From contig CALVIR010000003.1 in NCBI GenBank assembly GCA_944331915.1, forward strand, positions 3,294-67,293: 64,000 bases of DNA, read 5' to 3'. The stretch comes from an uncultured Bacilli bacterium. Its GTDB lineage: Bacteria > Bacillota_I > Bacilli_A > RF39 > UBA660. The translations under genes were made by a program, and so were the position numbers. Of this stretch, positions 3,082 through 31,870 are shown one piece after another. Each line of letters opens with the position of its first letter. The first letter of the stretch is position 1. The notes under the pieces are model-generated. The model did no database searches and was not told the DNA's origin. It saw only the letters and a list, made by a program, of their open reading frames with translations.

Positions 3082-3219
3082 AAATACCTCTCTTTCACCT
3101 CAATTATATAACAGAAAGATAATATATGACAATTTAAATTATTTAATGAATTTTCGTATATTTCTTACCATATTAAATAATTAGGGGTATAATTAAAGTA
3201 ATAGAAAAGGAGGCCCAAA

Positions 3220-3870
3220 ATGAGAAAAATAACTATCCCTAAATATAGTTTAGGAGAAGAAATAATTAATGCTATATCACATGGTTTAGGCGTTTTATTA
3301 GGTATAACTGCTCTTATTTTAACTATTATCTTTGCTGCTAAAAATAATAATACTATTGGTATTGTATCTGCTTGTATTTATGGCTCTACAATGATAATTA
3401 TGTATTTAATGAGTTGTTTATATCATTCTCTAAGTCCTAGATTAAAAGCCAAAAAAGTATTTAGGGTTATTGATCACTGTGATATTTATATTTTTATAGC
3501 AGGATGTTATACGCCTTACTGTTTAAGTCTAATCAAAGGTACAGAAGGTATAATCATCTTTATTATTATCTGGCTTAGTGCTATTATTGGCGTTTTATTA
3601 AATGCAATTAATCTTGAAAAGTTTCAAATACCATCAACGGCTATGTACTTAATAATGGGCTGGTTAATTATCTTTTCTTATAACGATATTAAAAGTCTTT
3701 TACCAAGTACAGGTCTAAATCTTTTAATCGGTGGCGGTGTTATTTATACAATTGGAGCGATACTATATGGAATAGGTTCTAAAAGAAAATATTTTCACTC
3801 CGTCTTTCATTTTTTTGTCTTAGCAGGATCAGTCTTTCACTTTTTTAGTATTTTATTATATGTTATGTAA
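3220..3870 (+). CDS. hemolysin III family (PAQR/YqfA-type) channel protein
   Basis: A 216-aa 7-TM protein. The motifs ISHGLG..., SCLYHSLSP and KVFRVIDHCDIYIFIAGCYTPY are typical of HlyIII. Confidence 0.8.
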   Translation: MRKITIPKYSLGEEIINAISHGLGVLLGITALILTIIFAAKNNNTIGIVSACIYGSTMIIMYLMSCLYHSLSPRLKAKKVFRVIDHCDIYIFIAGCYTPYCLSLIKGTEGIIIFIIIWLSAIIGVLLNAINLEKFQIPSTAMYLIMGWLIIFSYNDIKSLLPSTGLNLLIGGGVIYTIGAILYGIGSKRKYFHSVFHFFVLAGSVFHFFSILLYVM

Positions 3871-5152: not shown

Positions 5153-5259
5153 ACTTTATATAATCATACCCTAATATGATTATTTTTTAAAGTAGATTTT
5201 GAAGACAAAATAGAACATATTCCAAATTTAGTAAACATATACTTAATTAAGGTGATGTC

Positions 5260-5859
5260 ATGGATTCTTATATAACCTCATTAATGGTCAATTTAGGCTA
5301 TTTAGGGATGTTTTTAGGCATGGTTCTTGAGGCAGTAATAATTATTATTCCTAGTGAGTTAATATTAGCGACAGCAGGAATACTTGCAGGACAAGGAATA
5401 TTTTCTTTTTCTTTAGCGTTCTTAATAGGAATATTAGGTAGTGTTTTTTGTGCAATTGTTATTTATGCAATGGGATATTTTGGAGGAAGAAAGTTTATTC
5501 AAACTTATGGTAAGTTCTTTTTTATGAAAGAAGAAGATATTGATAAATGTGATAGATGGTTTAATAAGTATGGGCTAGTAGCAGCTTTTATTGGAAGAAA
5601 TTTTCCTATTATTAGAACCCTTATTTCCCTACCAATGGGAGTTAGTAAAGTACCGTTTATTAAGTTTGTAATTTATACAACTTTAGGTAGTATTCCTTGG
5701 ACTTTTGCTTTTGTTTATGTCGGCTATGCTTTAGGTAATAACTGGATTATCTTAGATAATTTTGTTAAAAAATTAAAAGTACCTATTTATATATTATTAG
5801 GAGTATTAGTTATTACATATTTATATAAGAAGCTAAAAGAGAAGAAGATGTCGAAATAA
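5260..5859 (+). CDS. DedA/TVP38 family membrane protein
   Basis: The core GYFGGRKFIQ...WFNKYGLVAAFIGRNFPIIRTLISLPMGVSKVPFIKF is typical of DedA proteins. Confidence 0.75.
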   Translation: MDSYITSLMVNLGYLGMFLGMVLEAVIIIIPSELILATAGILAGQGIFSFSLAFLIGILGSVFCAIVIYAMGYFGGRKFIQTYGKFFFMKEEDIDKCDRWFNKYGLVAAFIGRNFPIIRTLISLPMGVSKVPFIKFVIYTTLGSIPWTFAFVYVGYALGNNWIILDNFVKKLKVPIYILLGVLVITYLYKKLKEKKMSK

Positions 5860-5862
5860 AGA

Positions 5863-7452
5863 TTACTGTACTGTGTATGGATTATCCATAGTTCCAGAAC
5901 CACTTAAGATAACATCACTATTTAAATTGATAACGGGCCTTATTCCATCTGAATTCAATTGGGTACTAAAAATGAAAATAATATGCAAGGCATCTAATTG
6001 ATCCCAAATAGTAGGAACATTATTACGGAAATCCGCAGGAGTCATGGTATAGTACCTGAAATTATCAACACTAAGATAACTATCACTTGTAACCTCCAAA
6101 TTCTCTCCTGAAAAGATTAACTCATCGACTGTTATTAAACCAGCTTTAAGTTTATAACTACCACCATAACTTTCATTAGTATTAGGGCATATTAAAGTTG
6201 GAGAAATGTCTTCACCCTTCCCATCAACAAGTTGATGAATTCTATCATAACTACTAAAGCCCATATAATCTCTATTTATACCATAGTCTTTAACAGCAGT
6301 ATAACCACTACTATCACTACAAAATCTTCCTTCTATTACTTTATCATCATAAGCATTATTTTTTCCTAAAGTATTGTTATACCAGGTATCGACTTCTTTT
6401 TTAATAAAACTATCTACACCATTATCATAGGTATATCCTGTATATTTTGGATCATCATAGATTAAGTTATAAGGAGCAAATCCTATTATATATGAGGTAG
6501 CTAAGTCATTGTCATTAATACTTGTATTTGTCCCATTATAAATTAATCTTAGGCTACCATCACCATTTACTCTTACTATTTTCCAGTACATATCATCCCC
6601 ACTAGATGCTAACTTTATTTTATTACTTTCAGTACAATTAGAATTATATTCTTGACAACTCTCTAAACTTTGAAAATAACTATCATAATAATTATAGACA
6701 TAATAATCTTCATCATATTTACCAAATTTAATATTATTGTTGTCTATACTACCACGGAAATAATAACTTACTCCATCTTCATCGATGGCTTTGTATACTC
6801 CAGGTGTTATATAATTTGGATCAACGGTATCTGCGCCAAATTTCATACCGTTACTTGCATAATTAAACATATTATCTTTTGATACTTGAACTTTATTATC
6901 CACTAATATCTTATCTAAAGTACTAGCATTATACTTTACAAATAAATGGCCATTACTAGGTAGATTTAAATCATTATAATCTAGTCCCACACCTACTCCT
7001 AAAGGAATAGTAATTTCATTGTCACTAGTATTTCTTACTTTTATCTTATAAGTATTGCTACTACTAATTGTCCCTTGTTTTTCTAGATTAATTCCTGGTT
7101 CTTCTGGAGGAGTATTAAAATTAGCTTCTTCAAGGTAACCAAGTTCAATCTCAGAAGATAAATCACCTATATAATAAAAGTTAAATCTTGCTATTCTACT
7201 ATTAGGATTAGATAATGTAATAATAAATTCTTTAATACTATTGGCAGGAACTACAAGACTTTCAGTACTAACATTATCTACTTTTAAGTCATAACTTAGT
7301 GTTCCTGTGACAATACTTATGGCATTACTCTTTTCTTTTGTTACTGTAAACATTGCATAAGAAAAGTAACTTGTTAATAGTAGCAAAGTTATTAATATTA
7401 CACTTATTATATATATTTTTGATATCTTAGTATTCAATAATATTCTTTTCAT
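5863..7452 (-). CDS. surface-protein family member 1: TasA/SipW-cognate-like N-domain plus C-terminal 'GIRPVINL...GSGTMDNPY' domain
   Basis: N-terminus MKRILLNTKISKIY...SYFSYAMFTVTKEKSNAISIVTG resembles the SipW-cognate signal class. It shares the LGVGVGLDYNDLNLPSNGHLF core with the other copies. The C-terminal half is homologous to copy 4. Confidence 0.8.
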   Translation of the reverse strand: MKRILLNTKISKIYIISVILITLLLLTSYFSYAMFTVTKEKSNAISIVTGTLSYDLKVDNVSTESLVVPANSIKEFIITLSNPNSRIARFNFYYIGDLSSEIELGYLEEANFNTPPEEPGINLEKQGTISSSNTYKIKVRNTSDNEITIPLGVGVGLDYNDLNLPSNGHLFVKYNASTLDKILVDNKVQVSKDNMFNYASNGMKFGADTVDPNYITPGVYKAIDEDGVSYYFRGSIDNNNIKFGKYDEDYYVYNYYDSYFQSLESCQEYNSNCTESNKIKLASSGDDMYWKIVRVNGDGSLRLIYNGTNTSINDNDLATSYIIGFAPYNLIYDDPKYTGYTYDNGVDSFIKKEVDTWYNNTLGKNNAYDDKVIEGRFCSDSSGYTAVKDYGINRDYMGFSSYDRIHQLVDGKGEDISPTLICPNTNESYGGSYKLKAGLITVDELIFSGENLEVTSDSYLSVDNFRYYTMTPADFRNNVPTIWDQLDALHIIFIFSTQLNSDGIRPVINLNSDVILSGSGTMDNPYTVQ

Positions 7453-7690
7453 CTTCTACTCCTTATCAATTATCTTGACATTAATTATAGTTTACCCTAT
7501 TTCTTTAATTTTATGTGCTGGCTATATAACCAATTTACACCATGAAAAAGAACAGAATACTCCTATCCTGTCCTTATTGTATGATTAAAGAAGGTACTTA
7601 AGCTTCTAAAGTACCCCCCCCCCAGGTAACTTGTTGTAAACCGGATGTTCTTGTCATTTCATACCTTCTTTCTATTTTTTATTAACTTAA
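7453..7690 (-). promoter_or_regulatory. family leader cassette (copy 1): uORF with a C10/G10 tract (7614..7623), hairpin 7548..7575, plus an ~80-bp insert shared with copy 6
   Basis: A conserved ~160-bp element recurs 5' of all seven paralogs. The uORF MTRTSGLQQVTWGGGTLEA spans 7598..7657. Confidence 0.6.
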
Positions 7691-7723
7691 TAGTAACATA
7701 ATTAATGAATTATTACAATAGAT

Positions 7724-9493
7724 TTAATTACCGGCATTTAATACAAGACGAAAAGAACCATTATAACGACCTGAACTTATATAATTGTAATAATGAAAAA
7801 TTCCAGCATCAGTTTTGTCACCATAATAACCACCTCTAACAATCCAAGGGTATGCTGAATTGACCATTGTCCATGAATCGTTATACCAATTGTTAGTTTC
7901 ACTTAAAGCATGGGATAAACAAATTTTACCAGAACATGCGGTATTAGTATTGTCGCTTGTATATTGATCATAATATTTAGAGTCTATTATAATATTTTCC
8001 ATACCAATTCCGTTATAATTTGCCATTATAAATTCCCAGGCTCCACCTGACATATCATAGATTCCATAAATATTTCCAGTTGTTGAAGAGCCAGTACCAT
8101 TAATATCTATATCATAAGTATAATGACAACCATAATCAGTATTACCATTGCTTGGTTCTCCATAACTGCATCCAGTTATATATTGATCACTTTTATTTTG
8201 ATAAATCTCTTTATTAGCATTACTAAAATCGGTATTACCTAGTTTTCCATATCGACTTTGGGATAAGTAGGCTACTGTTGCCCATTCACTATTCTTCATC
8301 ATATGTGTATCTACACTACTACTAAATCCATATCTATTTCCTGTATCATTCATTTTTATTGATACATTAAAAGCATTACTTATACTTATATTTCTCCAAC
8401 TTATCACATTAGGTTTAATTATTGGATCTAAAGTAGTTGTATCTCCTCCTCCATATTCTGCATCAGGATTACTACTACTTGTTTCAAATTTTCCTACCCA
8501 GATTCCTGATAGTTCTTCATCACCAAAAGTAAAAGCATCTGGGGTATACCAACTATTACTATTCATTCCTTCATTTATATTATATCTAGCAGTTCCCTTT
8601 TCTTTGACATTTACTCTAACAAATTTTATATCTATCTCTCCTGGTAAAGCTTGAGTTGGAGAATTACTCTCACATGCTACTTGTCTACCATAGTAATTTG
8701 TTCCATCAATACTTGCTATAGAATAACTATATCGTGGTATCCATACCCACATAGTCTCTATATCATCCATATTTATTACAGTTCCTACACTAGCACTCTT
8801 ATAGCTCTCTCTTGTACTACTACTGACAGTTACAGCATTAGCCCATTTCTGTTCACTATAATTATACCAATCATTATTAGTATTATTTGTATCCGCTTTG
8901 ACCCAGTTGTTATCAACATATTTTACGGCAATCATATTACTATCTAACTCTGGAGCATTTACATTTTGACCATATTCTAAAAAAGAATGTTCATCAGTTG
9001 CTAAACTAAGATCATTATAATCAAGTCCCACACTTACTCCTAAAGTTATTGTTTGTTCCTTACTGCCATCATTATATATTACAATTTTATAAGTCTCAGT
9101 TGATCCTATTGTTCCAGTTATTTCTAGATTTACTCCAGTCTCTTCTGGTGGTTTTACACTTTCACAATCTATAATATAACCAGCTTCTACATTCGCATCT
9201 AAATTACCTTTATAATATAAATTAAATCTTGCTATTCTATTATTAGGATTAGTTAAAGTAACAAGAAATGTTTTTTCTTCTTTTGGTCCTATGACTAATT
9301 TATCTGAACTTACTCCATCTACTTTTAAGTCATAAGTTAGATTTCCTGTTACAATACTTATCGCATTACTTTTTTCTTTTGTTACTGTAAACATCGCATA
9401 GGAAAAGTAACTTGCTAATAGTAAGAAACTAATTAATACTGTACATAAAACATATATCTTTGATATCTTAGTATTTAATAATATTCTTCTCAT
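7724..9493 (-). CDS. surface-protein family member 2: TasA-like N-domain plus FGE-sulfatase-like C-domain
   Basis: The C-terminus carries FGE/SUMF1-like motifs: GIYDMSGGAWEF (compare GLYNxxGNxWEW), RGGYYGD (compare KGGSY) and SFRLV (compare GFRCA). Confidence 0.8.
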   Translation of the reverse strand: MRRILLNTKISKIYVLCTVLISFLLLASYFSYAMFTVTKEKSNAISIVTGNLTYDLKVDGVSSDKLVIGPKEEKTFLVTLTNPNNRIARFNLYYKGNLDANVEAGYIIDCESVKPPEETGVNLEITGTIGSTETYKIVIYNDGSKEQTITLGVSVGLDYNDLSLATDEHSFLEYGQNVNAPELDSNMIAVKYVDNNWVKADTNNTNNDWYNYSEQKWANAVTVSSSTRESYKSASVGTVINMDDIETMWVWIPRYSYSIASIDGTNYYGRQVACESNSPTQALPGEIDIKFVRVNVKEKGTARYNINEGMNSNSWYTPDAFTFGDEELSGIWVGKFETSSSNPDAEYGGGDTTTLDPIIKPNVISWRNISISNAFNVSIKMNDTGNRYGFSSSVDTHMMKNSEWATVAYLSQSRYGKLGNTDFSNANKEIYQNKSDQYITGCSYGEPSNGNTDYGCHYTYDIDINGTGSSTTGNIYGIYDMSGGAWEFIMANYNGIGMENIIIDSKYYDQYTSDNTNTACSGKICLSHALSETNNWYNDSWTMVNSAYPWIVRGGYYGDKTDAGIFHYYNYISSGRYNGSFRLVLNAGN

Positions 9494-9650
9494 TATTTAC
9501 TCCCTTCATTTAACCACCAAAAAGAACAGAATACTACTATCCTGTTCTTATTATATGATTAAAGAAGGTACTTAAGCTTCTAAAGTACCCCCCCCCAGGT
9601 AACCATTTGTAAACGGGTGTTAGTTCTCATTTTCATACCTTCTTTCTACT
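9494..9650 (-). promoter_or_regulatory. family leader cassette (copy 2): C9 tract 9588..9596
   Basis: Identical to the copy 3 cassette. Confidence 0.6.
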
Positions 9651-9683
9651 CTAACTAAAAGTTAACATACAAATAGCAAAATG

Positions 9684-11459
9684 TCAATCATTAATTACGT
9701 TCATCACTAAACGGTAAGCGGCAAGATCATAACCAGTACCATTACCATGATCAAAATAGAAGACACCAGCTCCTGTACTATAATTATAGTTATCACCACG
9801 ACCTATCCATGGATATTCTATGTTCAAATTATTTTGATAATCTCCATACCAGCCTGCTGTTTCTGATAAATCATGGGATAAACATTCTTTTCCATTGCAA
9901 GCAGTAAAAATGTCACTACTTGTATATTTATCATAGTATTTAGATTCCGGCATTGATGTGAAACCAGAGTTACTTACTATTTCATTATAGTTACCCATGA
10001 CATATTCCCAGGCTCCACCAGACATATCATATACTCCATAGATAGTTCCTGTTGTTGAAGCTCCTGTTCCATCGATATTTATATCATAAGTATAATGACA
10101 ACCATAATCAGTATTTCCATTAGACGGTGCTCCATAACTGCATCCAGTTATATATTGATTACTCTTATTTTGATATACCTCTTTATTAGCATTACTAAAA
10201 TCTGTATTGCCTAACTTTCCATATTTACTTTGAGATAGATACGCTACTACGCCCCATTCACTATTCTTCATCATATGCGTATCTACATTACTACTAAAAC
10301 CATATCGATTACCATTATCATTCATTTTTAAACTTACGTTAAAAGCGGTCGATATGTATATGTTTCTCCAACTAGTAACATTAGGTTTTATCATTGGATC
10401 TAAAGCAGTTGTATTCCCTCCTCCATATTCTGTATCAGGATTACTACTACTTGTTTCAAACTTTCCTACCCAAATTCCACTTAACTCTTCATCACCAAAG
10501 GTAAAGGCATCTGGGGTATACCAACTTGTTATTTCTTCTCCTACTTTATATTTAGCACTACATCTATCTTTTTCTCCACTTGCAACAAATTTTACATCTA
10601 TTTCTCCTGGTAATTCTTGAGTAGGTACTGTTGTTAAATATTCTCCTTGTTTTCCATAATAATTGGTTCCATCAACACTACCTATAGAATAACTATATCT
10701 TGGTATCCATACCCACATGGTTTCTATATCATTCATATTTATTACGGTTCCGACATTAGCACTCTTATAACTTGCTCTTGTACTACTACTGACAGTCACA
10801 GCATTAGCCCATTTCTGTGCATCATAGTTATACCAGTCATTATTAGTATTGCTTGTATCTGCTTTAACCCAATTATTGTTTTCATATTTTACTGCTATCA
10901 TATTAGTATCTAATTCTGGAGCATTTGGTTCATTTGTATACTCCGCAAATAAATATCCATTACTTGGTAAACTTAAATCATTATAATCTAGTCCCACATT
11001 TACTCCTAAAGTTATAGTCTGTTCTTGGTTACCATTATTTGATATTACTAATTTATAAGTCTCACTTGATCCTACGGCATTTACTTTCTCTAGATTTACT
11101 CCACTTTCTTCTGGTGGTGTTTGGCTCTCACAATCTATAATATAACCTGCTTCTATATTTGAATCTAAATTACCTTTATAATATAAATTAAATCTTGCTA
11201 ATCTATTATTAGGATTAGTTAATGTAATAGTAAAGGTCTTACTTTCCTTTGGTCCTAGGACTAATTTATCTGTACTTACGCCATCTACTTTTAAGTCATA
11301 AGTTAAATTTCCTGTTACAATACTTATCGCATTACTTTTTTCTTTTGTTACTGTAAACATCGCATAGGAAAAGTAACTTGCTAATAGTAAGAAACTAATT
11401 AATACTGTACATAAAACATATATCTTTGATATCTTAGTATTTAATAATATTCTTCTCAT
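9684..11459 (-). CDS. surface-protein family member 3 (FGE-like C-domain)
   Basis: A close paralog of copy 2. The first ~90 nt and the 5' leader are identical at the nucleotide level. Confidence 0.8.
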   Translation of the reverse strand: MRRILLNTKISKIYVLCTVLISFLLLASYFSYAMFTVTKEKSNAISIVTGNLTYDLKVDGVSTDKLVLGPKESKTFTITLTNPNNRLARFNLYYKGNLDSNIEAGYIIDCESQTPPEESGVNLEKVNAVGSSETYKLVISNNGNQEQTITLGVNVGLDYNDLSLPSNGYLFAEYTNEPNAPELDTNMIAVKYENNNWVKADTSNTNNDWYNYDAQKWANAVTVSSSTRASYKSANVGTVINMNDIETMWVWIPRYSYSIGSVDGTNYYGKQGEYLTTVPTQELPGEIDVKFVASGEKDRCSAKYKVGEEITSWYTPDAFTFGDEELSGIWVGKFETSSSNPDTEYGGGNTTALDPMIKPNVTSWRNIYISTAFNVSLKMNDNGNRYGFSSNVDTHMMKNSEWGVVAYLSQSKYGKLGNTDFSNANKEVYQNKSNQYITGCSYGAPSNGNTDYGCHYTYDINIDGTGASTTGTIYGVYDMSGGAWEYVMGNYNEIVSNSGFTSMPESKYYDKYTSSDIFTACNGKECLSHDLSETAGWYGDYQNNLNIEYPWIGRGDNYNYSTGAGVFYFDHGNGTGYDLAAYRLVMNVIND

Positions 11460-11625
11460 TATTTACTCCCTTCATTTAACCACCAAAAAGAACAGAATAC
11501 TACTATCCTGTTCTTATTATATGATTAAAGAAGGTACTTAAGCTTCTAAAGTACCCCCCCCCAGGTAACCATTTGTAAACGGGTGTTAGTTCTCATTTTC
11601 ATACCTTCTTTCTATTATTATTTAT
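11460..11625 (-). promoter_or_regulatory. family leader cassette (copy 3): uORF 11546..11602 (MKMRTNTRLQMVTWGGVL), C9 tract 11554..11562, hairpin 11488..11515 followed by U5
   Basis: On the coding strand an AGAAGG RBS lies 7 nt before the second ATG. The G-tract sits inside the uORF. The hairpin is AAGAACAG-N12-CTGTTCTT followed by TTTTT, then the main RBS AAGGGAG. Confidence 0.6.
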
Positions 11626-12156: not shown

Positions 12157-12810
12157 TTAAAAACCTACTCTTAATATTTCAAAGCTAGCATTATTACTAA
12201 CTCCATAACTTAGAGCTTCACTGCTAGTTTGAAAAAGTAAATCAAACATAAATTTTTGATCTTTTCCAATATCAGGTCCACGATCTAAGACAATACCTAT
12301 AAAATCTCCTACATTAGTATTACTAACTTTAACTATAGTACCAAAAGGATATTCTCTACCACCAGATAAAATTCTTATTTCACCATATTCTTGATCAAGA
12401 TAAGTTATAGTATCAGTAATACAGTAACCATAAGCAGTGTGGGTACCAATATCAGCACCATAACCACTCATTCTTCCAGTAAATATCTCATTATTAGTAT
12501 TAACATTCTCATCTTGATTAGTAGTTTCTTCATTAGGTTTAAGCTCTTCTTGATAGTTTATATTTTTATCAACTGACTCCACTATCTCGTCAATTGGCTC
12601 TTCTTCGATAATATTCTCTTCTTCTATTGGTTCTATTTCCTCAACAGGAATAGATTCTATTATAGGTTCTTCTTTAGTTATAGTTTCACTCTTTACATAA
12701 GTTATTTTGTTATTTACATCTATATTTGTAATAGTAGGACTGGTTGTACTGACAAGTAAACAGCATCCCATAAAGAGTATAGCGTTTATAATATAAACAG
12801 TTATTTTCAT
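12157..12810 (-). CDS. lipoprotein with C-terminal 3D (YuiC/MltA-like) domain
   Basis: Lipobox-like FMGC signal. The C-terminus GYGADIGTHTAYGYCITDT...GTIVKV...GIVLDRGPDIG is typical of 3D/DPBB cell-wall proteins. Confidence 0.55.
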   Translation of the reverse strand: MKITVYIINAILFMGCCLLVSTTSPTITNIDVNNKITYVKSETITKEEPIIESIPVEEIEPIEEENIIEEEPIDEIVESVDKNINYQEELKPNEETTNQDENVNTNNEIFTGRMSGYGADIGTHTAYGYCITDTITYLDQEYGEIRILSGGREYPFGTIVKVSNTNVGDFIGIVLDRGPDIGKDQKFMFDLLFQTSSEALSYGVSNNASFEILRVGF

Positions 12811-16683: not shown

Positions 16684-18402
16684 CTATCCTAGGACATAAG
16701 GTGAACTTACAGTTCCATCACCACTAGTGAAACCGGTATCAGTTAACACATTAATAACCGGACGTACGGCGTAGTTGTTGTTACTGCTACCGCTTCCTAT
16801 TCCTAGATAATCACCACTCATAGCCCACACTGAAACCATACTATCTCCGAAGTCGCACGGCGTCATAGTCCAATAATCTGCTCCATTTTCTCCTGGATTC
16901 AAGTAACTATCTGTTGTCACTCCTGGATTTTCTCCTGCTAATACTAGTTCATCTGCTGTTATTAAGCCTGCTTTTAATCTATAACTACCTCCATAGCTTT
17001 CACTTATTGATGGACATTTTAACGTTGGAGCATTTGCTTTGGCATAATTAGTCATACTTTGCCCTAATCTGTCATAACTTGAAAAAAAATACCAATCACC
17101 CATATCTGGAAAGTCATAATCTGTATCTTGTTTATATCCGCTACTATCACTACAAAATCTTCCTAATATTACATATCTATCATAATTTTGATTACTTCCT
17201 AAAGTATTATTATACCAAGTATCTACCTCTTTTTTAACAAAAGAGTCTGTTCCATTATCATAGGTATATCCTGCATATTTTTGATCATTATAATACTCTA
17301 AATTATATAATGACATTCCTACAAAGTTGGCATCATCTATAGAACTATCTGTTGCTGTAGGATTTGTTCCGTTATAGATTAATCTTAATGAACCATCTCC
17401 ATTTACTCTTATTATTTTCCAGTACATCTTATCTCCTGCTGATGCTAATTTTACTCTATTACTCTCATTACAACTTGAATAATGTTCTTGACAACTTTCT
17501 AAGCTTTGAAAATACTGATATCCAGAATTATATACATAATATACATAATAATCACTTTGATACTCTCCAAACTGAACATTATTATTAGTGACATTTCCTC
17601 TAAAGTAGTAACTTATGCCATCTTCATCTTCGGCTTGAAATAGACCATTTGTTACATATTCTGGATTTGTACTTGGTCCATTTTCCATATCAAAGTATCC
17701 ACCATTACTAGCATAATTGAACATATTAGTTTTTTCTTCTTGTAACTCGTTATTAGCTAAAATTGTTTGTACAGTCTCTGGGACATATTTATCTCCATCT
17801 TTACCATAAACATTTATTTGGACACTAAATTGTAAATTGCCTCCATCTCCTTGAGGATTATATTCTTCTGTTACATACATTCTAAGACGATAATTATTAG
17901 TTTCACTTGAGTTCATACTACTTGTATATAAACTCATTTCTCCTGCTGGTCTTCCTGTATAATTGTTAGCATTAGCTTCTTCACTATATGTCTCTGGTAA
18001 CATTAAAGCTTCTTCACTACCATCACTGTTTAATTTAGTTAGATATAACTTGATATTAGAGCCATCTATCTTTCTATCGCTTGTCGTTATATCTTTTGCA
18101 CTGATTTCATAGTTGATATTAACATTACCAGTGATATTACTTGATATCGTAAAATCAAAGTATTCTCCCTCTGTTAATCTAACTGTACCTGTTTTATCTG
18201 TTGTTGGTAATGCCCCACTCATATTTATAATATTACTAGTTTCAGTATAAGTCATCGTAATTGCTCCACTTGTAATACTGTTAACAGTATCTCCTGTATC
18301 TGTATAACTAAAGGCAGCATAACTTACTCCTACTACTGCTACAATCATTATCAAGATTAAACCTAAAATTATTATTTTTTCTTTTCTTTTTTCCATAAAC
18401 AC
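16684..18402 (-). CDS. surface-protein family member 4 ('GVRPVINV...GDGTVSSPY' C-domain type)
   Basis: N-terminus ...GVSYAAFSYTDTGDTVNSITSGAITMTY is a very close match to the SipW-cognate signal class. The C-terminal half is homologous to copy 1. Confidence 0.8.
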   Translation of the reverse strand: MFMEKRKEKIIILGLILIMIVAVVGVSYAAFSYTDTGDTVNSITSGAITMTYTETSNIINMSGALPTTDKTGTVRLTEGEYFDFTISSNITGNVNINYEISAKDITTSDRKIDGSNIKLYLTKLNSDGSEEALMLPETYSEEANANNYTGRPAGEMSLYTSSMNSSETNNYRLRMYVTEEYNPQGDGGNLQFSVQINVYGKDGDKYVPETVQTILANNELQEEKTNMFNYASNGGYFDMENGPSTNPEYVTNGLFQAEDEDGISYYFRGNVTNNNVQFGEYQSDYYVYYVYNSGYQYFQSLESCQEHYSSCNESNRVKLASAGDKMYWKIIRVNGDGSLRLIYNGTNPTATDSSIDDANFVGMSLYNLEYYNDQKYAGYTYDNGTDSFVKKEVDTWYNNTLGSNQNYDRYVILGRFCSDSSGYKQDTDYDFPDMGDWYFFSSYDRLGQSMTNYAKANAPTLKCPSISESYGGSYRLKAGLITADELVLAGENPGVTTDSYLNPGENGADYWTMTPCDFGDSMVSVWAMSGDYLGIGSGSSNNNYAVRPVINVLTDTGFTSGDGTVSSPYVLG

Positions 18403-18560
18403 TTACTCCTTTCAATTTAACCATAAAAAAGAACAGAATTTTTTTATCCTGCTCTTATTCCATGATTAAAGAAAGTACTTAAGCTTCTAAAGTACCCCCC
18501 CCCAGGTAACTTGTTGTAAACGGGTGTTAGTTCTCATTTTCATACCTTCTTTCTATCTTT
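18403..18560 (-). promoter_or_regulatory. family leader cassette (copy 4): C9 tract 18495..18503
   Basis: Same element. The uORF is MKMRTNTRLQQVTWGGVL. Confidence 0.6.
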
Positions 18561-22401: not shown

Positions 22402-24177
22402 TTATTCTATACAAAGAATAGTTCTAAATGAGTTATCTATACGCACGCCACCTAAACTATATGTAGCACCATAAGAAAACAGACCAGAATCAACTTGATC
22501 ATAGTAGTATCCACCTCTTACTAACCAGGGATACTCATTATTTATCATATTATTAATATCTTTATACCATTCTGAAGTTTCTGATAAGGCATGGCTTAAA
22601 CATTCTTCTCCATTGCATGCTGTTAATATGTTATCTGTTATATATTTATCATAATACTTTGACTCGGGAAAAATGGTAAAATCAGCATTACCTAATATAT
22701 CATTATAATTACCCATAACATATTCCCAGGCTCCTCCTGATGTATCGTATATTCCATAAATATTGCCGGTTGTTGAAGCTCCGGTTCCATTTATATCTAT
22801 GTCATATGTGTATTGACATCCATAATCGGTATTGCTATTTGATGGCATTCCATAACTACACCCAGTTATATACTCTTCACTTTTATTTTGATATATTTCT
22901 TTATTAGCATTACTAAAATTTGTATTACCTAACTTTCCATATTTACTTTGGGATAGATATGTTACAGCTCCCCACTCACTGTTTTTCATCATATGGGTGT
23001 CGATAGTACTACTAAATCCATATCTATTTCCTTCATCATTCATCTTTAAACTTACATTAAAAGCATTACTTACATTTATACATCTCCAACTTGTTACATT
23101 TGGTTTTATCATCGGATCTAACTCAGTTGTATTCCCTCCTCCATATTCTAATGAAGGATTAGAACTACTTGTCTCAAACTTGCCTACCCAGATTCCACTT
23201 AGTTCCTCATCTCCGAATGTAAAGGCATCTGGGGTATAATACTCTTTTGCTCCAGTTGTCGTTATGTATTTTGCATTTCCCCTATCTTTTATTTTATCAC
23301 TTACAAATCTTATATCTATTTCTCCTGGTAATTCTTTAGTTGGTTCACTTTCTAAATAACAGCCTTGCTTTCCATAATAATTAGTTCCATCAACGCTTGC
23401 AATACTATAACTATATCTTGGTATCCATACCCACATTGTTTCAATATCATTCATATTTACTATGGTTCCTACAGAAGCATTTTTATAATTTTCTCTTGTT
23501 GAACTACTTACTGTTACCGCATTAGCCCATTTTTGCTCATTATAGTTATACCAATCATTTTTAGTGTTACTTGTATCAGCTTTAACCCAATTGTTATCTA
23601 CATATTTTACAGCTATCATATTAGTATCTAACTCTGGTGCATTTGGTTCATTTACATATTCTTTAAATAAATGTCCATTACTTGGCAAACTTAAATCATT
23701 ATAATCAAGTCCTACTTGTACCCCTAATTCTATCACTATTTCATTACTAGAATTATTTTCTACCATTATTTTATATTTATTACTACTACCTATACTTTTA
23801 CTTGCTTCTAAGTTTACTCCAGTTTCTTCTGGTAAATTAGTAGTTTCACAATCTTTTATATAACCAGCATTTACCTCTGTTGGTATTTCATTTAAGTAAT
23901 AAAAATTAAACCTAGCTATTCGATTATTGGGATTTGTTAATGTAATAATAAATTCTTCAGCACTATTGGCTTTAACAACGAGGTTTTGACTAGAATTGCC
24001 ATCTACTTTTAAATCATAAGTTAAATTACCTGTGACAATACTTATGGCATTACTTTTCTCCTTACTTACTGTAAACATGGCATAGGAAAAGTAACTTGCT
24101 AATAGTAATAAAGTAATTAATACTGTGCCTAAGATATATATCTTTGATATTTTAGTACTTAATAATATTTTCTTCAT
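22402..24177 (-). CDS. surface-protein family member 5 (FGE-like C-domain)
   Basis: A paralog of copies 2 and 3. Confidence 0.8.
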   Translation of the reverse strand: MKKILLSTKISKIYILGTVLITLLLLASYFSYAMFTVSKEKSNAISIVTGNLTYDLKVDGNSSQNLVVKANSAEEFIITLTNPNNRIARFNFYYLNEIPTEVNAGYIKDCETTNLPEETGVNLEASKSIGSSNKYKIMVENNSSNEIVIELGVQVGLDYNDLSLPSNGHLFKEYVNEPNAPELDTNMIAVKYVDNNWVKADTSNTKNDWYNYNEQKWANAVTVSSSTRENYKNASVGTIVNMNDIETMWVWIPRYSYSIASVDGTNYYGKQGCYLESEPTKELPGEIDIRFVSDKIKDRGNAKYITTTGAKEYYTPDAFTFGDEELSGIWVGKFETSSSNPSLEYGGGNTTELDPMIKPNVTSWRCINVSNAFNVSLKMNDEGNRYGFSSTIDTHMMKNSEWGAVTYLSQSKYGKLGNTNFSNANKEIYQNKSEEYITGCSYGMPSNSNTDYGCQYTYDIDINGTGASTTGNIYGIYDTSGGAWEYVMGNYNDILGNADFTIFPESKYYDKYITDNILTACNGEECLSHALSETSEWYKDINNMINNEYPWLVRGGYYYDQVDSGLFSYGATYSLGGVRIDNSFRTILCIE

Positions 24178-24330
24178 CTCTTACTCCCTTTATTTAACCA
24201 CAAAAAAGAACAGAATACCTCTATCCTGCTCTATTCCATAATTAAAGAAAGTACTTAAATGTCTAAAGTACCCCCCCCCGGTAACTTGTTGTAAACTTGA
24301 TACTCTTGCCATTTTCATACCTTCTTTCTA
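24178..24330 (-). promoter_or_regulatory. family leader cassette (copy 5): C9 tract 24271..24279, lacking the flanking A, giving a longer uORF
   Basis: Same element; here cccccccccggtaac replaces cccccccccaggtaac. Confidence 0.55.
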
Positions 24331-27706: not shown

Positions 27707-29560
27707 TTATGGCAAGGCCAATGTGAATGGATTTTGAAGGGTTCCGTCACCTGATGTTATTATTACATTTTGTTTTAGATTTAGAGATGGGCGAACACCA
27801 TTAGCAACCGTGGAACTAAAGTAGTCCATACGACCATAGTAGCTCACACTCCACACATAAGACGTACTGTATGGTGTTAAAGTCCAGTAATGTGTATTAT
27901 TATCATTACTATCAAATTGCCCTGCCATTAATTCGCCATAACGTAATAATCCTACTTTTGCTGTAGTTATACTTGATGTTAATGTAGTACCAGTTGTATC
28001 TGTATACTTCGCTAGTTTATAGTTAGTTCCTGCTCCTATTGTTCCAAGATACCAGGTTGTGTTATCTTCTATTATTGATATATCTTCATCTGTTAGATAA
28101 TTATTATCTGTATTCAAATAATCATTATTCAAAAATGAACCAATTGTAGTACTACTAGAATATTCAATACCGTTACCAAAAGTTGAGGAAATAAAACTAC
28201 CATCTTTTTTTAATGGTTCAGCACTAGTTATTTTTGTTCCTGTTCCATTTTCATGGTTTACTATCCGGTACAAATTGTTTTCTCCTGTTCCAAACCTTAT
28301 GTACTCGCCACTATATCTACTTGAAAGTAGTGTTCCTAATAGATTAGTATCATCATCTCCATTAAGTCGATATGGATTATCTATTGTCCCATCACCGCCG
28401 GCAATTTTAACGCTAGATTTTAGATTTATGGATGGTCTAACGCCATTCGTATATACAGTACTATAGCCTCCCGTACGGCCATGGTCCACATTCCAAATGT
28501 AAGATGCATCACTTGGTGTTAATGTCCACCAATTTATGACATTATTTAAATAGCCATTAATAGCTGTTGTGTCACTATAACTCATGGTATATTCGTAAAT
28601 ATTTAATAGTCCAACAGGATCAGTTACCAAAGTTGTTTCTGTTGGTTTCGTTGTCTCATCTGTCATCATAGTTGCATTCCATATACTATCCATTTTGATA
28701 AATTTCTCTGGTTCTCTTAAATTACCTAAGAAACCATCTACACTTATATCATTTAACCATTCTTCCATATAACTTCCTTCAAATGATGCACTACCACTTG
28801 AATAATTAATGGCACTTATATTCCATTGTGTCACTAATTTAACACTATTATCACTTGGATCTATACTTACGGCTCTCCATAGTTTTCCGCTATACCAAAT
28901 ATAGTTATTTGGATCTGTTCCTGTTATAAATGTCTGATCAGGATCACTTGTATTTATCGCTCCATTTTCTCCTACTCCATCTAAAAGCACCTCTGCAACA
29001 GTCTGTCTTTCTTGACTTACCTCTACTCTTAACTTTCCTTTAAATACTTGTCCTGAATAGTTCCCATCTACCTCATCGGTTATCCAGATGTTTAAACTAT
29101 ATGTATTTGTCTCTCTTCCTTCTATTGTCCCACTATCTAAAACTCTATTAGGATTAGTTCCAATCCTTGTTAATAGGGTTGCTCCACTATCAGTACCATT
29201 TTTATTAAGGTTATACTTTAAAAAATTATCATCTATTCTTGTATCAGTACTATCTATCTCCATATCATCTAAATAAATTGTATAATCTACCGCTTTATCA
29301 CCATTATTTACTAAAGTAAATGTTGATGGTGTTAAACTCATCCCTTTGCTATCACTTACTCCTATAGCAGTATCTAAATTTATTCCTTCACTAGTTTCAT
29401 TCAATATTAAATCTAAAGTATCTATCTTTACTATTTGATCAGAGCCATTTAATGTTGTACTAAGATAAGCATAGGTTAATCCTAATACTGCTAGTAAGAC
29501 TATTAAGATACTTATTACAATTACTATAGTTTTTCTATTTTGTTTATTTTCTTTCATCAC
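27707..29560 (-). CDS. surface-protein family member 6: divergent signal, two tandem 'WWTLTP...GVRPS(I/L)NLK...GDGT..NP(Y/F)' repeats
   Basis: The N-terminus LTYAYLSTTLNGSDQIVKIDTLDLIL is still SipW-cognate-like. It has the same 5' leader cassette. Confidence 0.8.
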   Translation of the reverse strand: MMKENKQNRKTIVIVISILIVLLAVLGLTYAYLSTTLNGSDQIVKIDTLDLILNETSEGINLDTAIGVSDSKGMSLTPSTFTLVNNGDKAVDYTIYLDDMEIDSTDTRIDDNFLKYNLNKNGTDSGATLLTRIGTNPNRVLDSGTIEGRETNTYSLNIWITDEVDGNYSGQVFKGKLRVEVSQERQTVAEVLLDGVGENGAINTSDPDQTFITGTDPNNYIWYSGKLWRAVSIDPSDNSVKLVTQWNISAINYSSGSASFEGSYMEEWLNDISVDGFLGNLREPEKFIKMDSIWNATMMTDETTKPTETTLVTDPVGLLNIYEYTMSYSDTTAINGYLNNVINWWTLTPSDASYIWNVDHGRTGGYSTVYTNGVRPSINLKSSVKIAGGDGTIDNPYRLNGDDDTNLLGTLLSSRYSGEYIRFGTGENNLYRIVNHENGTGTKITSAEPLKKDGSFISSTFGNGIEYSSSTTIGSFLNNDYLNTDNNYLTDEDISIIEDNTTWYLGTIGAGTNYKLAKYTDTTGTTLTSSITTAKVGLLRYGELMAGQFDSNDNNTHYWTLTPYSTSYVWSVSYYGRMDYFSSTVANGVRPSLNLKQNVIITSGDGTLQNPFTLALP

Positions 29561-29780
29561 AGTTCACTCCATTATCAATTATTTTGACATTAATTATAGT
29601 TTACCCTATTTTTTTAATTTTATGTGCTGGCTATATAACCAGTTTACATGCTAAAAAAGAACAGAATACTCCTATCCTGTCCTTATTGTATGATGAAAGA
29701 AAGTACTTAAATGTCTAAAGTACCCCCCCCCAGGTAACTTGTTGTAAACGGGTGTTAATTCTCATTTTCATACCTTCTTT
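29561..29780 (-). promoter_or_regulatory. family leader cassette (copy 6): C9 tract 29723..29731, plus the ~80-bp insert shared with copy 1
   Basis: The uORF is MKMRINTRLQQVTWGGVL. Confidence 0.6.
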
Positions 29781-29879
29781 CTATCTTTAATTTAATACAA
29801 GTTTAACATAAATTATAATTAACAACAAGATATTTTTATCTTCAAATTAAAGAGAAAAAAATATTTTAACTCAATTTAT

Positions 29880-31706
29880 TTAGGGTGCAATGTCAAGTAT
29901 GAAAGGTTGTTCCTTAGTCCCAATTCCACCAGTGATGATGACGTTAGATTTTAAGTTGAGAGATGGTTTTACTCCGCTTATATTAGACACACTTATATAA
30001 TTTGCAATATTAATAGTATCAATTAAGTAAACAGTAGATTGATCATATGGTGTTAATGTCCAATATGATGTATTATTCTCATATCTATCGAATTGTCCAG
30101 CCATTAACTCTCCTAATCTTAATAACCCAACTTTTGCGTTTATACTTGTAGCATATTCTGACATATTAGTATCTTTATATTTGGCTAATTTGTATGATGC
30201 TCCGTTATCTACAGTACCTAAATACCAAGTAGTACTATCTTCTATCATATCAATATAGTTTTCGCCTACATAATTTGTTAAATATTCGTTATTTAGAAAA
30301 TTGCCTATTGTATTTGTATCTGAATAATATACACTATCTCCAAAAGTTATGGTTTTAAATGTTTCATTTTCTTTTAAAGGTATAGCACTAGTTATTTTTG
30401 TTAATCCTTCACTTTCATGGCTTACTATTCGATATAGATTATTGTCACCCGTTCCAAATATTATATATTCACCACTATACCTAGTATTAAGTTTTGTTCC
30501 ATTTAGATTAGTATCATTATCCCCTTCTAGTCTATAGGGATTTTCTTCACTCCCATCCCCATCTACTATTTTTATGTTAGATTTTAGATTTATTGATGGT
30601 CTTACCCCTCGTTTTCCTAAAGATGAAAGAGCAGCAACGAAACCATTATTGTATATATAGTAAAGATTTGATAAATTATATGGAGTTATAAGAAAACTAG
30701 TAGTTCCATTATTTAGATATCCTCTAGTAATATGAGTTTCATTATAACTTGTTGTATACTCATAATAATTTAATAATCCCACAGCATCTTCTACTATTGT
30801 TCCTCCATCTTCTTCATTAGAAGGTTTACTAGCATCAGTCATTGTACTAGCATTCCACTTAGCATCAGTCACTATAAAACTTTGATAATCTCTTAAATTT
30901 CCTAAAAAACCATCTTCACTAGTATCATTTAGCCATTCTTCCATATAGCTTCCTTCAAAGGCACTACTATCATTATCATAAGAAATGGCACTTATAGGCC
31001 ACTGGGTTACTAATTTAACTGTTTTTTCTTCATTATTAACACTAACTGCTCTCCATAACTTTCCACTATACCAGACATAGTTATTAGGGTATTGTCCTGT
31101 TGTAAATGTATCCTCTCCATCATCATAAATATTATCTTTACTTATATTACTTAATACAACAGTTCCTATTTCTCCCTTAGATATTATTTCTTCAAATAAA
31201 TGTCCATTTTCTGGTAGACTTAAATCATTATAATCTAGTCCTACTTGCACTCCTAAAATAACTGTTACACTACTTTCTGAACTATTTATTACTCTTATTG
31301 TGTAAGTATTACTTGAACCTATGGTATCTATCTTTTCTAAGTTTATTCCTTTCTCAGCTGGCAATGTATTTGTTCCATCTTCTACTATATATCCCACTTT
31401 GACATGAGATGGTAGGTCTCCTAGATAATAAAAATTAAATCTAGCTAAACGATTATTAGGATTATTTAAAGTAATGGTAAAATCTTTTACTGAATTTGCT
31501 TCAACTGTTAAAGTATTAGATTCAACTCCATCTATTAATAATTCATAAGTTAAGTTACCTGTTACTATACTTATAGCATTACTTTTTTCTTTGGTTACTG
31601 TAAACATAGCATAGGAATAATAACCTCCTATAACTAGAAATGTTAATATAATCATCACTAACATATAAATCTTACTAAATTTTGTTTCTAATAATATTTT
31701 TTTCAT
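29880..31706 (-). CDS. surface-protein family member 7: family N-domain fused to copy-6-type repeat C-domain (mosaic)
   Basis: The N-terminal 170 aa resemble copies 1-5. The C-terminal 430 aa are collinear with copy 6 (YWTLTPYDQS...GVKPSLNLKSNVIITGGIGTKEQPF). Confidence 0.8.
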   Translation of the reverse strand: MKKILLETKFSKIYMLVMIILTFLVIGGYYSYAMFTVTKEKSNAISIVTGNLTYELLIDGVESNTLTVEANSVKDFTITLNNPNNRLARFNFYYLGDLPSHVKVGYIVEDGTNTLPAEKGINLEKIDTIGSSNTYTIRVINSSESSVTVILGVQVGLDYNDLSLPENGHLFEEIISKGEIGTVVLSNISKDNIYDDGEDTFTTGQYPNNYVWYSGKLWRAVSVNNEEKTVKLVTQWPISAISYDNDSSAFEGSYMEEWLNDTSEDGFLGNLRDYQSFIVTDAKWNASTMTDASKPSNEEDGGTIVEDAVGLLNYYEYTTSYNETHITRGYLNNGTTSFLITPYNLSNLYYIYNNGFVAALSSLGKRGVRPSINLKSNIKIVDGDGSEENPYRLEGDNDTNLNGTKLNTRYSGEYIIFGTGDNNLYRIVSHESEGLTKITSAIPLKENETFKTITFGDSVYYSDTNTIGNFLNNEYLTNYVGENYIDMIEDSTTWYLGTVDNGASYKLAKYKDTNMSEYATSINAKVGLLRLGELMAGQFDRYENNTSYWTLTPYDQSTVYLIDTINIANYISVSNISGVKPSLNLKSNVIITGGIGTKEQPFILDIAP

Positions 31707-31870
31707 CTTTTACTCCTTTCATTTAATCGCAAAAAAGAACAGAATACTCCTATCCTGTTCTTATTCTATGATTAAAGAAAGTACTTAAGCTTCTAAAGTA
31801 CCCCCCCCCAGGTAACTTGCTGTAAACGGGTGCTAGTTTTCATTTACATACCTTCTTTCTATCTTTAACT
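31707..31870 (-). promoter_or_regulatory. family leader cassette (copy 7): C9 tract 31801..31809
   Basis: Perfect hairpin; the uORF is MKTSTRLQQVTWGGVL. Confidence 0.6.

What the first reader, a model, noticed from the sequence alone, without database searches (positions are those of the whole stretch)
9400..11459. Evidence of recent gene conversion or duplication between family members
Copies 2 and 3 are identical at the nucleotide level over the first ~90 coding nt and the whole 5' leader (compare 9370..9650 with 11340..11620). They then diverge internally in patches. Copy 7 joins a copy-1-to-5-type N-domain to a copy-6-type C-domain. Patchwork identity of this kind is typical of contingency loci that diversify by recombination among paralogs.
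Basis: seen in the sequence. Interest (0 to 1): 0.55.

Follow-up and report, generated by a model that had tools for sequence, protein, structure and literature searches.

The report
Recombining surface-protein genes sharing one leader
Two neighbouring members of a seven-gene family of secreted proteins in an uncultured chicken-gut bacterium share a perfectly identical 308-base start region that was recently copied from one to the other, and the whole family swaps pieces in this way, much as the variable surface-protein families of known pathogens do.

Summary
Copies 2 (7724-9493) and 3 (9684-11459), both on the minus strand, share an exact 308-nt block (9341-9648 = 11307-11614). It covers 155 nt of leader and 153 coding nt, not about 90. 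Synonymous divergence is 0 in the block, 0.3-0.8 in the gene body and over 1.4 in the tail. No other paralog pair shares more than 73 exact nt. A permutation test gives P<5e-5.

Other strains (Candidatus Onthousia faecavium-like metagenome contigs) show the expected incongruence. The copy-2 ortholog is 99% identical in its C-terminal two-thirds but only 81% in the first 153 nt. Copy 3 is missing there and is itself a mosaic. Other loci carry different family members. One breakpoint inside copy 2 is an inter-strain recombination junction, not a paralog exchange.

Copy 7 is an N-type-A/C-type-Z hybrid, but an old one (57% amino-acid identity). Copy 4 has the copy-6-type N-domain.

Every gene sits behind a conserved leader with a short upstream ORF, a G9 tract and a terminator. 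Tract length varies between near-identical strains. That makes the "contingency locus" reading plausible but unproven.

Verdict: recent gene conversion in a modular, recombining family. It is a new member of a known kind, and its leader may be a new type of switch.

The parts
9341..9648 (-). Identical block, copy-2 side: 155 nt of leader plus the first 153 coding nt
   Evidence: Exact 308-nt match to 11307-11614; dS = 0
11307..11614 (-). Identical block, copy-3 side
   Evidence: the same block is present in L001 and L002
7724..9493 (-). Copy 2 (c2), 589 aa: N-domain type A plus C-domain type X (weak FGE-sulfatase-like match)
   Evidence: Orthologs P0005/P0004/P0008 are 93-94% identical. The inter-strain junction lies near 8745
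9684..11459 (-). Copy 3 (c3), 591 aa: type A + X. A mosaic gene, absent from the sister lineage
5863..7452 (-). Copy 1 (c1), 529 aa: type A N-domain plus type Y C-domain
   Evidence: 100% identical between the two lineages
16684..18402 (-). Copy 4 (c4), 572 aa: type B N-domain plus type Y C-domain. In the sister lineage this locus holds an A+X gene (P0063)
22402..24177 (-). Copy 5 (c5), 591 aa: type A + X. Its ortholog is 98-99% identical in the body and 82% in the first 153 nt
27707..29560 (-). Copy 6 (c6), 617 aa: type B N-domain plus type Z C-domain (DUF6273 repeats)
29880..31706 (-). Copy 7 (c7), 608 aa: type A N-domain plus type Z C-domain (old hybrid)
9494..9647 (-). Leader of copy 2: SD, uORF 9580-9636 (MKMRTNTRLQMVTWGGVL*), G9 tract 9588-9596, terminator-like hairpin 9519-9549
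11460..11613 (-). Leader of copy 3, identical to that of copy 2: uORF 11546-11602, G9 11554-11562, terminator 11485-11515
7453..7673 (-). Leader of copy 1 (long type): G10 tract 7614-7623, terminator 7545-7575
   Evidence: The tract is G9 in L002 and most other strains
18403..18554 (-). Leader of copy 4: G9 18495-18503
24178..24329 (-). Leader of copy 5: G9 24271-24279 without the preceding T, so the uORF (24190-24318) runs through the terminator
29561..29782 (-). Leader of copy 6 (long type, 89% identical to that of copy 1): G9 29723-29731
31707..31860 (-). Leader of copy 7: G9 31801-31809

Best explanation
The window holds seven paralogs of a modular secreted or surface protein family. Each has an N-terminal hydrophobic anchor or signal, a beta-sandwich N-domain of type A or B, and one of three C-terminal domain types.

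Each gene has its own promoter and a conserved 150-220-nt leader. That leader, together with the conserved signal-peptide coding region, gives every paralog a stretch of shared homology at its 5' end. Homologous recombination uses that homology.

In this lineage a recent non-reciprocal exchange (gene conversion) between the tandem copies 2 and 3 overwrote 308 nt. The tract runs from the start of shared homology, about where the transcript starts, to codon 51. It made leader, uORF, G-tract and signal peptide identical, while the gene bodies remain old paralogs.

The same process produces 5'-end swaps, short patches, mosaic genes such as copy 3, and replacement, gain or loss of whole family members at fixed loci. 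It acts both between paralogs and between strains.

Shown: the identity block, its statistical excess, the dS pattern, the ortholog/paralog incongruence and the mosaicism.

Inferred: the molecular route (RecA-type conversion). The direction of the event is not resolved. The biological pay-off is also inferred: variation of exposed proteins, and movement of a leader's switch state from one gene body to another.
For: - Exact 308-nt block. dS = 0 in codons 1-50 against 0.27-0.82 elsewhere and over 1.4 in the tail. The same codons have dS 0.44 against copy 5, so selection on the sequence cannot explain the identity.
- Sawyer-type run test: 47 concordant polymorphic sites against at most 18 in 20,000 permutations. 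MaxChi P about 5e-4.
- The block is unique in size. All other paralog pairs share at most 73 exact nt.
- Strain comparison: W_c2 against B_c2 is 99.2% (CDS 601-end), 88.6% (154-540), 81.0% (1-153) and 91% (leader), while W_c2 = W_c3 in the last two regions. There are 44 consecutive sites with W_c2 = W_c3 != B_c2, then a mixed zone, then pure orthology.
- Copy 5: 98-99% in the body, 82% in the first 153 nt. The 5' end of the sister allele is 94% identical to copy 1.
- L012: a B-type copy 2 carrying a patch of about 130 nt that is identical to the window block.
- Copy 3 mosaic: its best relative changes along the gene, for example 96-97% to a gene of the other lineage at nt 837-970. PHI-like test P<=0.0005.
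- Locus-level turnover: copy 3 is absent from L003-L009, L012 and L039. The copy-4 locus holds an A+X gene in the other lineage. There the copy-7/6 locus holds one A+X gene with a nonsense codon.
- Modules assort independently: five N/C combinations. The long leader is shared by copies 1 and 6 at 89% identity, which ends at the start codon.
- The arrangement is reproduced in independent assemblies.
Against: - All sequences are short-read metagenome assemblies. A 308-nt repeat exceeds read and k-mer length, and an assembler could have collapsed a few real differences between the two copies into one consensus. '100%' could therefore be 'very nearly 100%'.
- No 'before' state exists for this lineage. 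The only other carriers of copy 3 (L001, L002) are the same strain. So the direction and timing of the event, and whether the block was homogenised after copy 3 arrived or during that event, cannot be resolved.
- Window and sister lineage are themselves mosaics: 100% identical from 8744 down to 347, but 84-93% upstream. Part of the ortholog/paralog contrast in copy 2 (nt 154-750) and in copy 5 may therefore reflect allelic recombination between strains rather than exchange between paralogs.
- L012 has only 2.5x coverage and could be a chimeric assembly.
Confidence: 0.8

Rival explanations
1. The identical block is a by-product of the event that placed copy 3 next to copy 2. A cassette (block + copy-3 body + promoter) would have integrated by a single homologous crossover inside the resident leader/5' block, or by unequal exchange. 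That leaves the block duplicated on both sides, rather than converted later between two long-standing neighbours.
For: The 1966-bp unit is flanked exactly by the two blocks. Copy 3 is absent from every contig of the sister lineage, where the copy-3 promoter region sits directly in front of copy 2. No protein more than 75% identical to copy 3 is in the database. Copy 3 is a mosaic of other family members.
Against: A crossover between non-identical blocks gives two reciprocal chimeras, not two identical copies. So identity still needs either an identical donor block or later conversion. The sister lineage is 7-15% diverged in this neighbourhood, so presence or absence of copy 3 may be old and could equally be a deletion between the two blocks.
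Confidence: 0.12
2. Assembly artefact. The two 5' regions are similar but not identical, and the metagenome assembler merged them into one consensus that was written into both copies.
For: The data are short-read metagenome contigs. The repeat is longer than typical reads. The leader core is highly conserved among all paralogs.
Against: Three assemblies from different samples and pipelines give the same block and the same tandem. The other five leaders of the same contig were kept distinct at 82-91% identity. The block ends sharply and is followed by ordinary divergence. Even with a few collapsed SNPs, the contrast with dS 0.3-0.8 would stand.
Confidence: 0.05
3. Purifying selection alone. Leader RNA and signal peptide are so constrained that copies 2 and 3 never diverged there.
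For: Leader and N-terminus are the most conserved parts of the family.
Against: The same block is only 82-91% identical (leader) and 72-88% identical (first 153 coding nt) between other functional paralogs, and 81% between orthologs of copy 2. Synonymous sites are free to vary: dS is 0.44 against copy 5.
Confidence: 0.01

Closest known systems
Helicobacter pylori bab (babA/babB/babC) and related outer-membrane-protein paralogs
   Same: Paralogs at fixed loci have near-identical 5' segments. Intragenomic gene conversion in the 5' region (about 60-240 bp from the start codon) makes chimeric genes and carries a simple-sequence repeat, and with it phase variability, from one paralog to another (PMC4552749, read). 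Here too the converted tract contains the repeat tract. Loci differ between strains in which family member they hold.
   Different: A Gram-negative outer-membrane family, against a secreted or anchored family in an uncultured member of Bacilli. The bab repeat is a CT dinucleotide inside the main coding region. Here it is a G9 run inside a separate upstream ORF followed by a terminator. There are seven expressed-looking copies here against two or three.
Mycoplasma variable lipoprotein families (e.g. M. hyorhinis vlp; own knowledge, not tested here)
   Same: Clustered paralogs each have their own promoter, a highly conserved 5' untranslated region and signal-peptide coding region, and divergent mature parts. 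A homopolymer tract upstream of each gene gives independent on/off switching. Recombination among members generates mosaics.
   Different: The vlp tract is poly(A) between the -35 and -10 promoter elements. Here the tract is poly(G) in a translated leader upstream of an intrinsic terminator. The proteins are unrelated: no lipobox was seen and the domains differ.
Neisseria opa family (own knowledge)
   Same: A multigene family with a repeat tract at the 5' end. Recombination between loci produces mosaic alleles. Alleles differ between strains at fixed loci.
   Different: The opa repeat (CTCTT) lies in the signal-peptide coding region of the gene itself. No leader ORF or terminator is involved.
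Clostridioides difficile cwpV-type leader switches (own knowledge)
   Same: A surface-protein gene whose on/off state is set in the 5' leader by whether an intrinsic terminator forms.
   Different: cwpV uses site-specific DNA inversion. No inverted repeats or recombinase are seen here. The variable element would be a homopolymer tract in a uORF.

Membership tests
Paralog gene conversion (concerted evolution of part of a gene family) | An identity tract between paralogs much longer than expected from their overall divergence | tested here: met
   308 exact nt. Run test: 47 against at most 18 in 20,000 permutations. P about 1e-24 at the rate seen against copy 5
Paralog gene conversion (concerted evolution of part of a gene family) | A drop in synonymous divergence confined to the tract | tested here: met
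   dS 0 in codons 1-50 against 0.27-0.82 in the body. The same codons have dS 0.44 against copy 5
Paralog gene conversion (concerted evolution of part of a gene family) | Within the tract, paralogs of one genome are closer to each other than orthologs are; outside it the reverse holds | tested here: met
   W_c2 = W_c3 (100%) against W_c2-B_c2 at 81% in CDS 1-153. W_c2-B_c2 at 99.2% against W_c2-W_c3 at 76.5% in CDS 601-end. Caveat: the background is mosaic between the strains
Paralog gene conversion (concerted evolution of part of a gene family) | Non-reciprocal transfer with an unchanged donor; direction known | not testable with these tools
   No pre-conversion allele of this lineage is available. 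L001 and L002 are the same strain
Contingency locus (simple-sequence-repeat phase variation) | A hypermutable repeat tract in or next to the gene | tested here: met
   A G9/G10 tract in all seven leaders. These are the only runs of 9 or more G in 64 kb, with 0 expected from shuffles
Contingency locus (simple-sequence-repeat phase variation) | Tract length differs between otherwise near-identical strains | tested here: met
   Copy 1 has G10 in the window, L001 and L005, and G9 in L002, L003, L004, L006-L009 and L012. This is the only internal difference over 14.3 kb against L002. The copy-5 ortholog has G9 (L010) or G8 (L011). Another leader has G9 (L020) or G6 (L029). Caveat: these are consensus sequences of metagenome assemblies, some at low coverage
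Contingency locus (simple-sequence-repeat phase variation) | A change in tract length switches expression reversibly at high frequency | not testable with these tools
   Only a frame analysis was possible. One G fewer sends the uORF into the terminator loop in 27 of 28 leaders. No expression data exist
Contingency locus (simple-sequence-repeat phase variation) | The product is exposed to the environment or host | tested here: inconclusive
   An N-terminal basic and hydrophobic segment, modelled as a helix at residues 9-41, followed by a beta-sandwich. DUF6273 in copies 6 and 7 passes the Pfam cut-off, while the FGE-sulfatase match in copy 2 is below it. No signal-peptide predictor was available and no PDB match was found
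Silent-cassette antigenic variation (pilE/pilS, vlsE type) | One expression site plus promoter-less silent donor copies | tested here: not met
   All seven copies have a full leader, SD and start codon. Six of them have a promoter-like element of their own (read from the sequence)
Diversity-generating retroelement target | A reverse transcriptase and a template repeat near a C-type-lectin-fold variable gene | tested here: not met
   No reverse-transcriptase-like ORF in the ORF list of the window. No template-like repeat of the C-terminal regions was found. DUF6273 and FGE-like domains are known DGR targets elsewhere (titles of PMC10743442 and PMC11792537), so this was considered
Rfam RNA families (for the leader) | A match to a curated covariance model | tested here: not met
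   No hit at gathering thresholds over the whole window. Only chance-level hits at E up to 10 on the copy-2 leader

The most novel reading that the evidence does not exclude
The conserved leader may be a previously undescribed phase-variable attenuator. It has a 16-19-codon upstream ORF (...LQxVTWGGVL*) containing a G9 tract, placed 30-42 nt in front of an intrinsic terminator.

With G9 the ribosome stops early and the terminator forms, so the gene is off. Loss of one G could happen by DNA slippage, RNA-polymerase slippage or ribosomal frameshifting. It puts the ribosome in a frame that ends at a conserved stop codon in the terminator loop. The ribosome would then occupy the 5' arm of the hairpin and transcription would read through, so the gene is on.

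Gene conversion of the 5' block would then copy not only sequence but also a switch state between family members. That would couple the two diversification mechanisms.
Probability: 0.3. Interest if true: 0.8.

Novelty: new member of a known kind. Interest (0 to 1): 0.55.

Why it matters
It shows that an uncultured, non-pathogen lineage of gut Bacilli (Candidatus Onthousia and relatives) keeps a large, actively recombining family of exposed proteins. Searches with single members found thousands of homologs in metagenomes. The genetic architecture is the one known from antigenic and phase variation in pathogens: a shared 5' homology block, mosaic genes, strain-specific family members at fixed loci, and a homopolymer tract.

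For annotation and metagenomics, it warns that these genes are hot spots for mis-assembly and for false orthology calls.

The leader gives a concrete, testable candidate for a new way of coupling a repeat tract to transcription termination.

Tried and rejected
- Rfam over the whole window at gathering thresholds, and over the copy-2 leader at E<=10: nothing meaningful.
- Pfam and NCBIfam on the seven proteins. Only DUF6273 (copies 6 and 7) passed its cut-off. The FGE-sulfatase match (copy 2) and the 'choice-of-anchor D' match (copy 3) were below cut-off. The SipW/TasA-type signal peptide I suspected from the motif ...SYAMFT... was not detected.
- AlphaFold2 of copy 2 with 56 homologs: mean pLDDT 49.6. 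Only the N-domain beta-sandwich was confident. Foldseek against PDB gave no hit below E 0.02, and a profile search against PDB sequences gave none. The function of the C-domain stays open.
- megablast at >=97% identity to find other paralog blocks missed embedded blocks, because alignments extended into diverged flanks. I replaced it with an exact-match scan.
- I first read the W_c2/B_c2 contrast in nt 154-750 as paralog conversion. I rejected this after finding that the two lineages are 100% identical downstream of 8744 and 84-93% upstream. That boundary is therefore an inter-strain junction.
- Leader RNA structure: RNAalifold gives a P1 helix (AAAGAAGG/CTTTCTTT) and the terminator hairpin, but only one compensatory pair. 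P1 is therefore unproven.
- Literature searches for a homopolymer-tract/uORF/terminator switch and for 'Onthousia' found no description of this family or leader.
- A DGR origin of the hypervariable C-terminus: no reverse transcriptase or template repeat in the window.
Full report
WHAT IS THERE

The window (29% G+C) comes from an uncultured member of Bacilli close to Candidatus Onthousia faecavium, a chicken-gut MAG species.

Seven paralogous genes lie on the minus strand among housekeeping genes (ileS, murE, dut, htrA):
- c1: 5863-7452
- c2: 7724-9493
- c3: 9684-11459
- c4: 16684-18402
- c5: 22402-24177
- c6: 27707-29560
- c7: 29880-31706

BLASTP among them shows a modular family.
- N-domain type A is in c1, c2, c3, c5 and c7 (55-65% amino-acid identity).
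- N-domain type B is in c4 and c6.
- C-domain X is in c2, c3 and c5, with a below-threshold FGE-sulfatase match.
- C-domain Y is in c1 and c4.
- C-domain Z is in c6 and c7, with DUF6273 repeats.

Five of the six possible N/C combinations occur.

An AlphaFold2 model of c2 is confident only for a beta-sandwich N-domain that follows an N-terminal helix. No solved structure matches by sequence or fold. The product is best described as a secreted or membrane-anchored protein with a variable C-terminal, probably ligand-binding, module. That description is an inference.

THE OBSERVATION

c2 and c3 share an exact 308-nt block, 9341-9648 = 11307-11614. It covers 155 nt of leader and 153 coding nt. Upstream of it homology ends. 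Downstream, the first mismatches are at coding nt 154, 180, 187 and 202, and they become dense from 213.

Identity in 60-nt windows then ranges from 63 to 97% up to +1456 and falls to about 55% in the tail.

Nei-Gojobori windows give these dS values:

| Codons | dS, c2 vs c3 |
|---|---|
| 1-50 | 0 |
| 51-100 | 0.27 |
| 101-500 | 0.37-0.82 |
| last 95 | 1.45-2.36 |

c2 and c5 have dS 0.44 in codons 1-50. Constraint on the sequence therefore cannot explain the identity.

A Sawyer-type test gives a run of 47 concordant polymorphic sites, against a maximum of 18 in 20,000 permutations. MaxChi is also significant. No other paralog pair, here or in the sister lineage, shares more than 73 exact nt.

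OTHER STRAINS

Contigs carrying exactly the c2 protein come from other samples. They are identical (L001) or 99.965% identical (L002) to the window, and they contain the same tandem and the same block.

Contigs of the sister lineage 'B' (L003-L009, L039; Ca. O. faecavium) lack c3. The promoter region that precedes c3 in the window sits directly before their c2.

Identity of window c2 to B c2, by segment:

| Segment | W c2 vs B c2 |
|---|---|
| CDS 601-end | 99.2% |
| CDS 154-540 | 88.6% |
| CDS 1-153 | 81.0% |
| Leader | 91% |

In the last two segments window c2 equals window c3. Site by site, 44 consecutive informative positions show W_c2 = W_c3 != B_c2. A mixed zone follows up to about +672, and then orthology only.

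c5 behaves in the same way: 98-99% in the body and 82% in the first 153 nt. The B allele's 5' end is 94% identical to c1.

A third allele (L012, low coverage) is B-type but carries a patch of about 130 nt identical to the window block.

c3 has no relative above 75% in the protein database. Its best nucleotide relative changes along the gene: c2, then an L014-type gene, then 96-97% to the B gene at the c4 locus. A PHI-like test on seven A+X genes gives P<=0.0005.

Whole family members differ between the lineages:
- The c4 locus holds an A+X gene in B.
- The c7/c6 locus holds a single A+X gene with a nonsense codon in B.

A NECESSARY CAUTION

Window and lineage B are themselves mosaics. They are 100% identical from 8744 down to 347, 84-93% identical upstream (murE 85-89%), and 98-99% in the c5 body.

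The boundary inside c2 near +750 is therefore an inter-strain (allelic) recombination junction. Part of the 154-750 contrast reflects that, not paralog exchange.

All data are short-read metagenome assemblies. Collapse of a few true differences in a 308-nt repeat cannot be excluded without reads. However, three assemblies agree, and the other leaders on the same contig were kept distinct.

MECHANISM

The most likely explanation (about 0.8) is recent gene conversion between the tandem paralogs. It would be seeded in the homology that all family members share: the leader and the signal-peptide coding region. The event is one instance of frequent homologous exchange that keeps 5' ends mobile and bodies modular. 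The direction of the event is unresolved.

The main rival (about 0.12) is that the block was duplicated as part of the event that inserted c3. This still needs an identical donor block or later conversion. Assembly artefact (about 0.05) and pure selection (about 0.01; refuted) are less likely.

THE LEADER (outside the finding, but inside the block)

Every gene has the following elements, in order:
- a promoter-like element, in six of the seven genes;
- a Shine-Dalgarno sequence;
- a short upstream ORF ending ...LQxVTWGGVL*;
- a G9 tract inside that ORF;
- a pyrimidine stretch complementary to the SD;
- a strong terminator-like hairpin, with one compensatory pair;
- the SD of the main gene.

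These tracts are the only runs of 9 or more G in the window, with 0 expected.

The uORF frame is kept in other genes and species despite indels and substitutions at its variable N-terminus. One variable position is exactly one codon, and there are synonymous changes.

Tract length varies from G6 to G10 between near-identical strains. c1 is G10 in the window but G9 in L002, and this is the only internal difference in 14.3 kb.

In 27 of 28 distinct leaders, one G fewer puts the uORF in a frame that ends at a conserved stop in the terminator loop. One G more ends it 22-31 nt before the terminator. This suggests a phase-variable, translation-dependent attenuator. The idea is untested.

The exact leader motif was found only in Ca. 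Onthousia and a few uncultured Bacilli MAGs. More distant homologs carry recognisable variants.

COMPARISON WITH KNOWN SYSTEMS

The closest analogue is the H. pylori bab family. There, gene conversion in the 5' region creates chimeras and moves a repeat tract between paralogs (PMC4552749).

Mycoplasma vlp-type families and Neisseria opa share the architecture (own knowledge).

The family fails the definition of a silent-cassette system, because all copies look expressible. It shows no DGR. The criteria for paralog gene conversion are met, except for the direction of transfer. The criteria for a contingency locus are met for tract presence and length polymorphism, but not testable for switching.

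VERDICT

The finding is confirmed and its interpretation supported. It is a new member of a known kind of system. Interest is moderate, raised somewhat by the leader.

Noticed in passing
Leaders: 7453-7673, 9494-9647, 11460-11613, 18403-18554, 24178-24329, 29561-29782, 31707-31860 (minus strand): Each leader holds a conserved short upstream ORF (...LQxVTWGGVL*) with a G9 tract, 30 nt upstream of a terminator-like hairpin. One G fewer puts the ORF in a frame that ends at a conserved stop codon in the terminator loop, in 27 of 28 distinct leaders including other species. This is a possible phase-variable attenuator. There is no Rfam match.
   Followed up: partly
7614-7623 (c1 leader) against L002, L003, L004, L005; L010 against L011; L020 against L029: G-tract length differs between otherwise near-identical contigs (G10/G9, G9/G8, G9/G6). 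The c1 tract is the only internal difference between the window and L002 over 14.3 kb.
   Followed up: yes
24190-24318 (c5 leader): The c5 leader lacks the T before its G9 tract and has a 1-nt deletion further on. Its uORF therefore runs through the terminator and stops one codon before the main Shine-Dalgarno sequence. It may be a copy fixed in the read-through state.
   Followed up: partly
7453-7673 and 29561-29782: c1 and c6 share a long leader type: 89% identical overall, about 95% in a 3' extension of about 70 nt that contains a small hairpin and a TATAAT-like box. Their N- and C-domains are of different types. The identity stops at the start codon.
   Followed up: partly
Window 347-8744 against L003; 11611-16529 against L003: The two lineages are 100% identical over about 8.4 kb downstream of the middle of c2 but only 84-93% identical upstream (murE 85-89%). 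A recent inter-strain transfer therefore ends inside c2.
   Followed up: yes
L010 4427-6199 (locus equivalent to window 27707-31706): In the sister lineage the c7/c6 locus holds a single type A+X gene interrupted by a TAA nonsense codon (AVK* where relatives have AVKY).
   Followed up: partly
L010 12225-12795 (between the equivalents of window 22402 and 21763): A RelB/ParE toxin-antitoxin pair lies between c5 and ileS in the sister lineage. It is absent from the window.
   Followed up: no
12157-12810 (217-aa ORF) against L003 and L039: This small secreted-looking protein with an acidic, repetitive linker differs by 8-16% among three strain types whose flanks are much closer. It is another hypervariable gene next to the family.
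   Followed up: no
15449-16417: A membrane protein with a Peptidase_C39_2/C70-like domain (Pfam marks on the orthologous gene in L001) lies next to c4. It is conserved in both lineages. A role in processing the family proteins is conceivable but untested.
   Followed up: no
L033 5720-6000; L036 5770-6000; L035 5745-6000: Distant family members (53-63% amino-acid identity) have variant leaders. One has G8 with a longer uORF (MILQGKIIRQ...). One has the Trp codon changed to TAG and only G5. One has no such leader at all.
   Followed up: partly
49464-49922: A 152-aa ORF resembling an IS200/IS605-type Y1 transposase (judged from the sequence only). An Abi_2-domain gene lies at 33092-34048 (Pfam mark on the ortholog in L010).
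   Followed up: no
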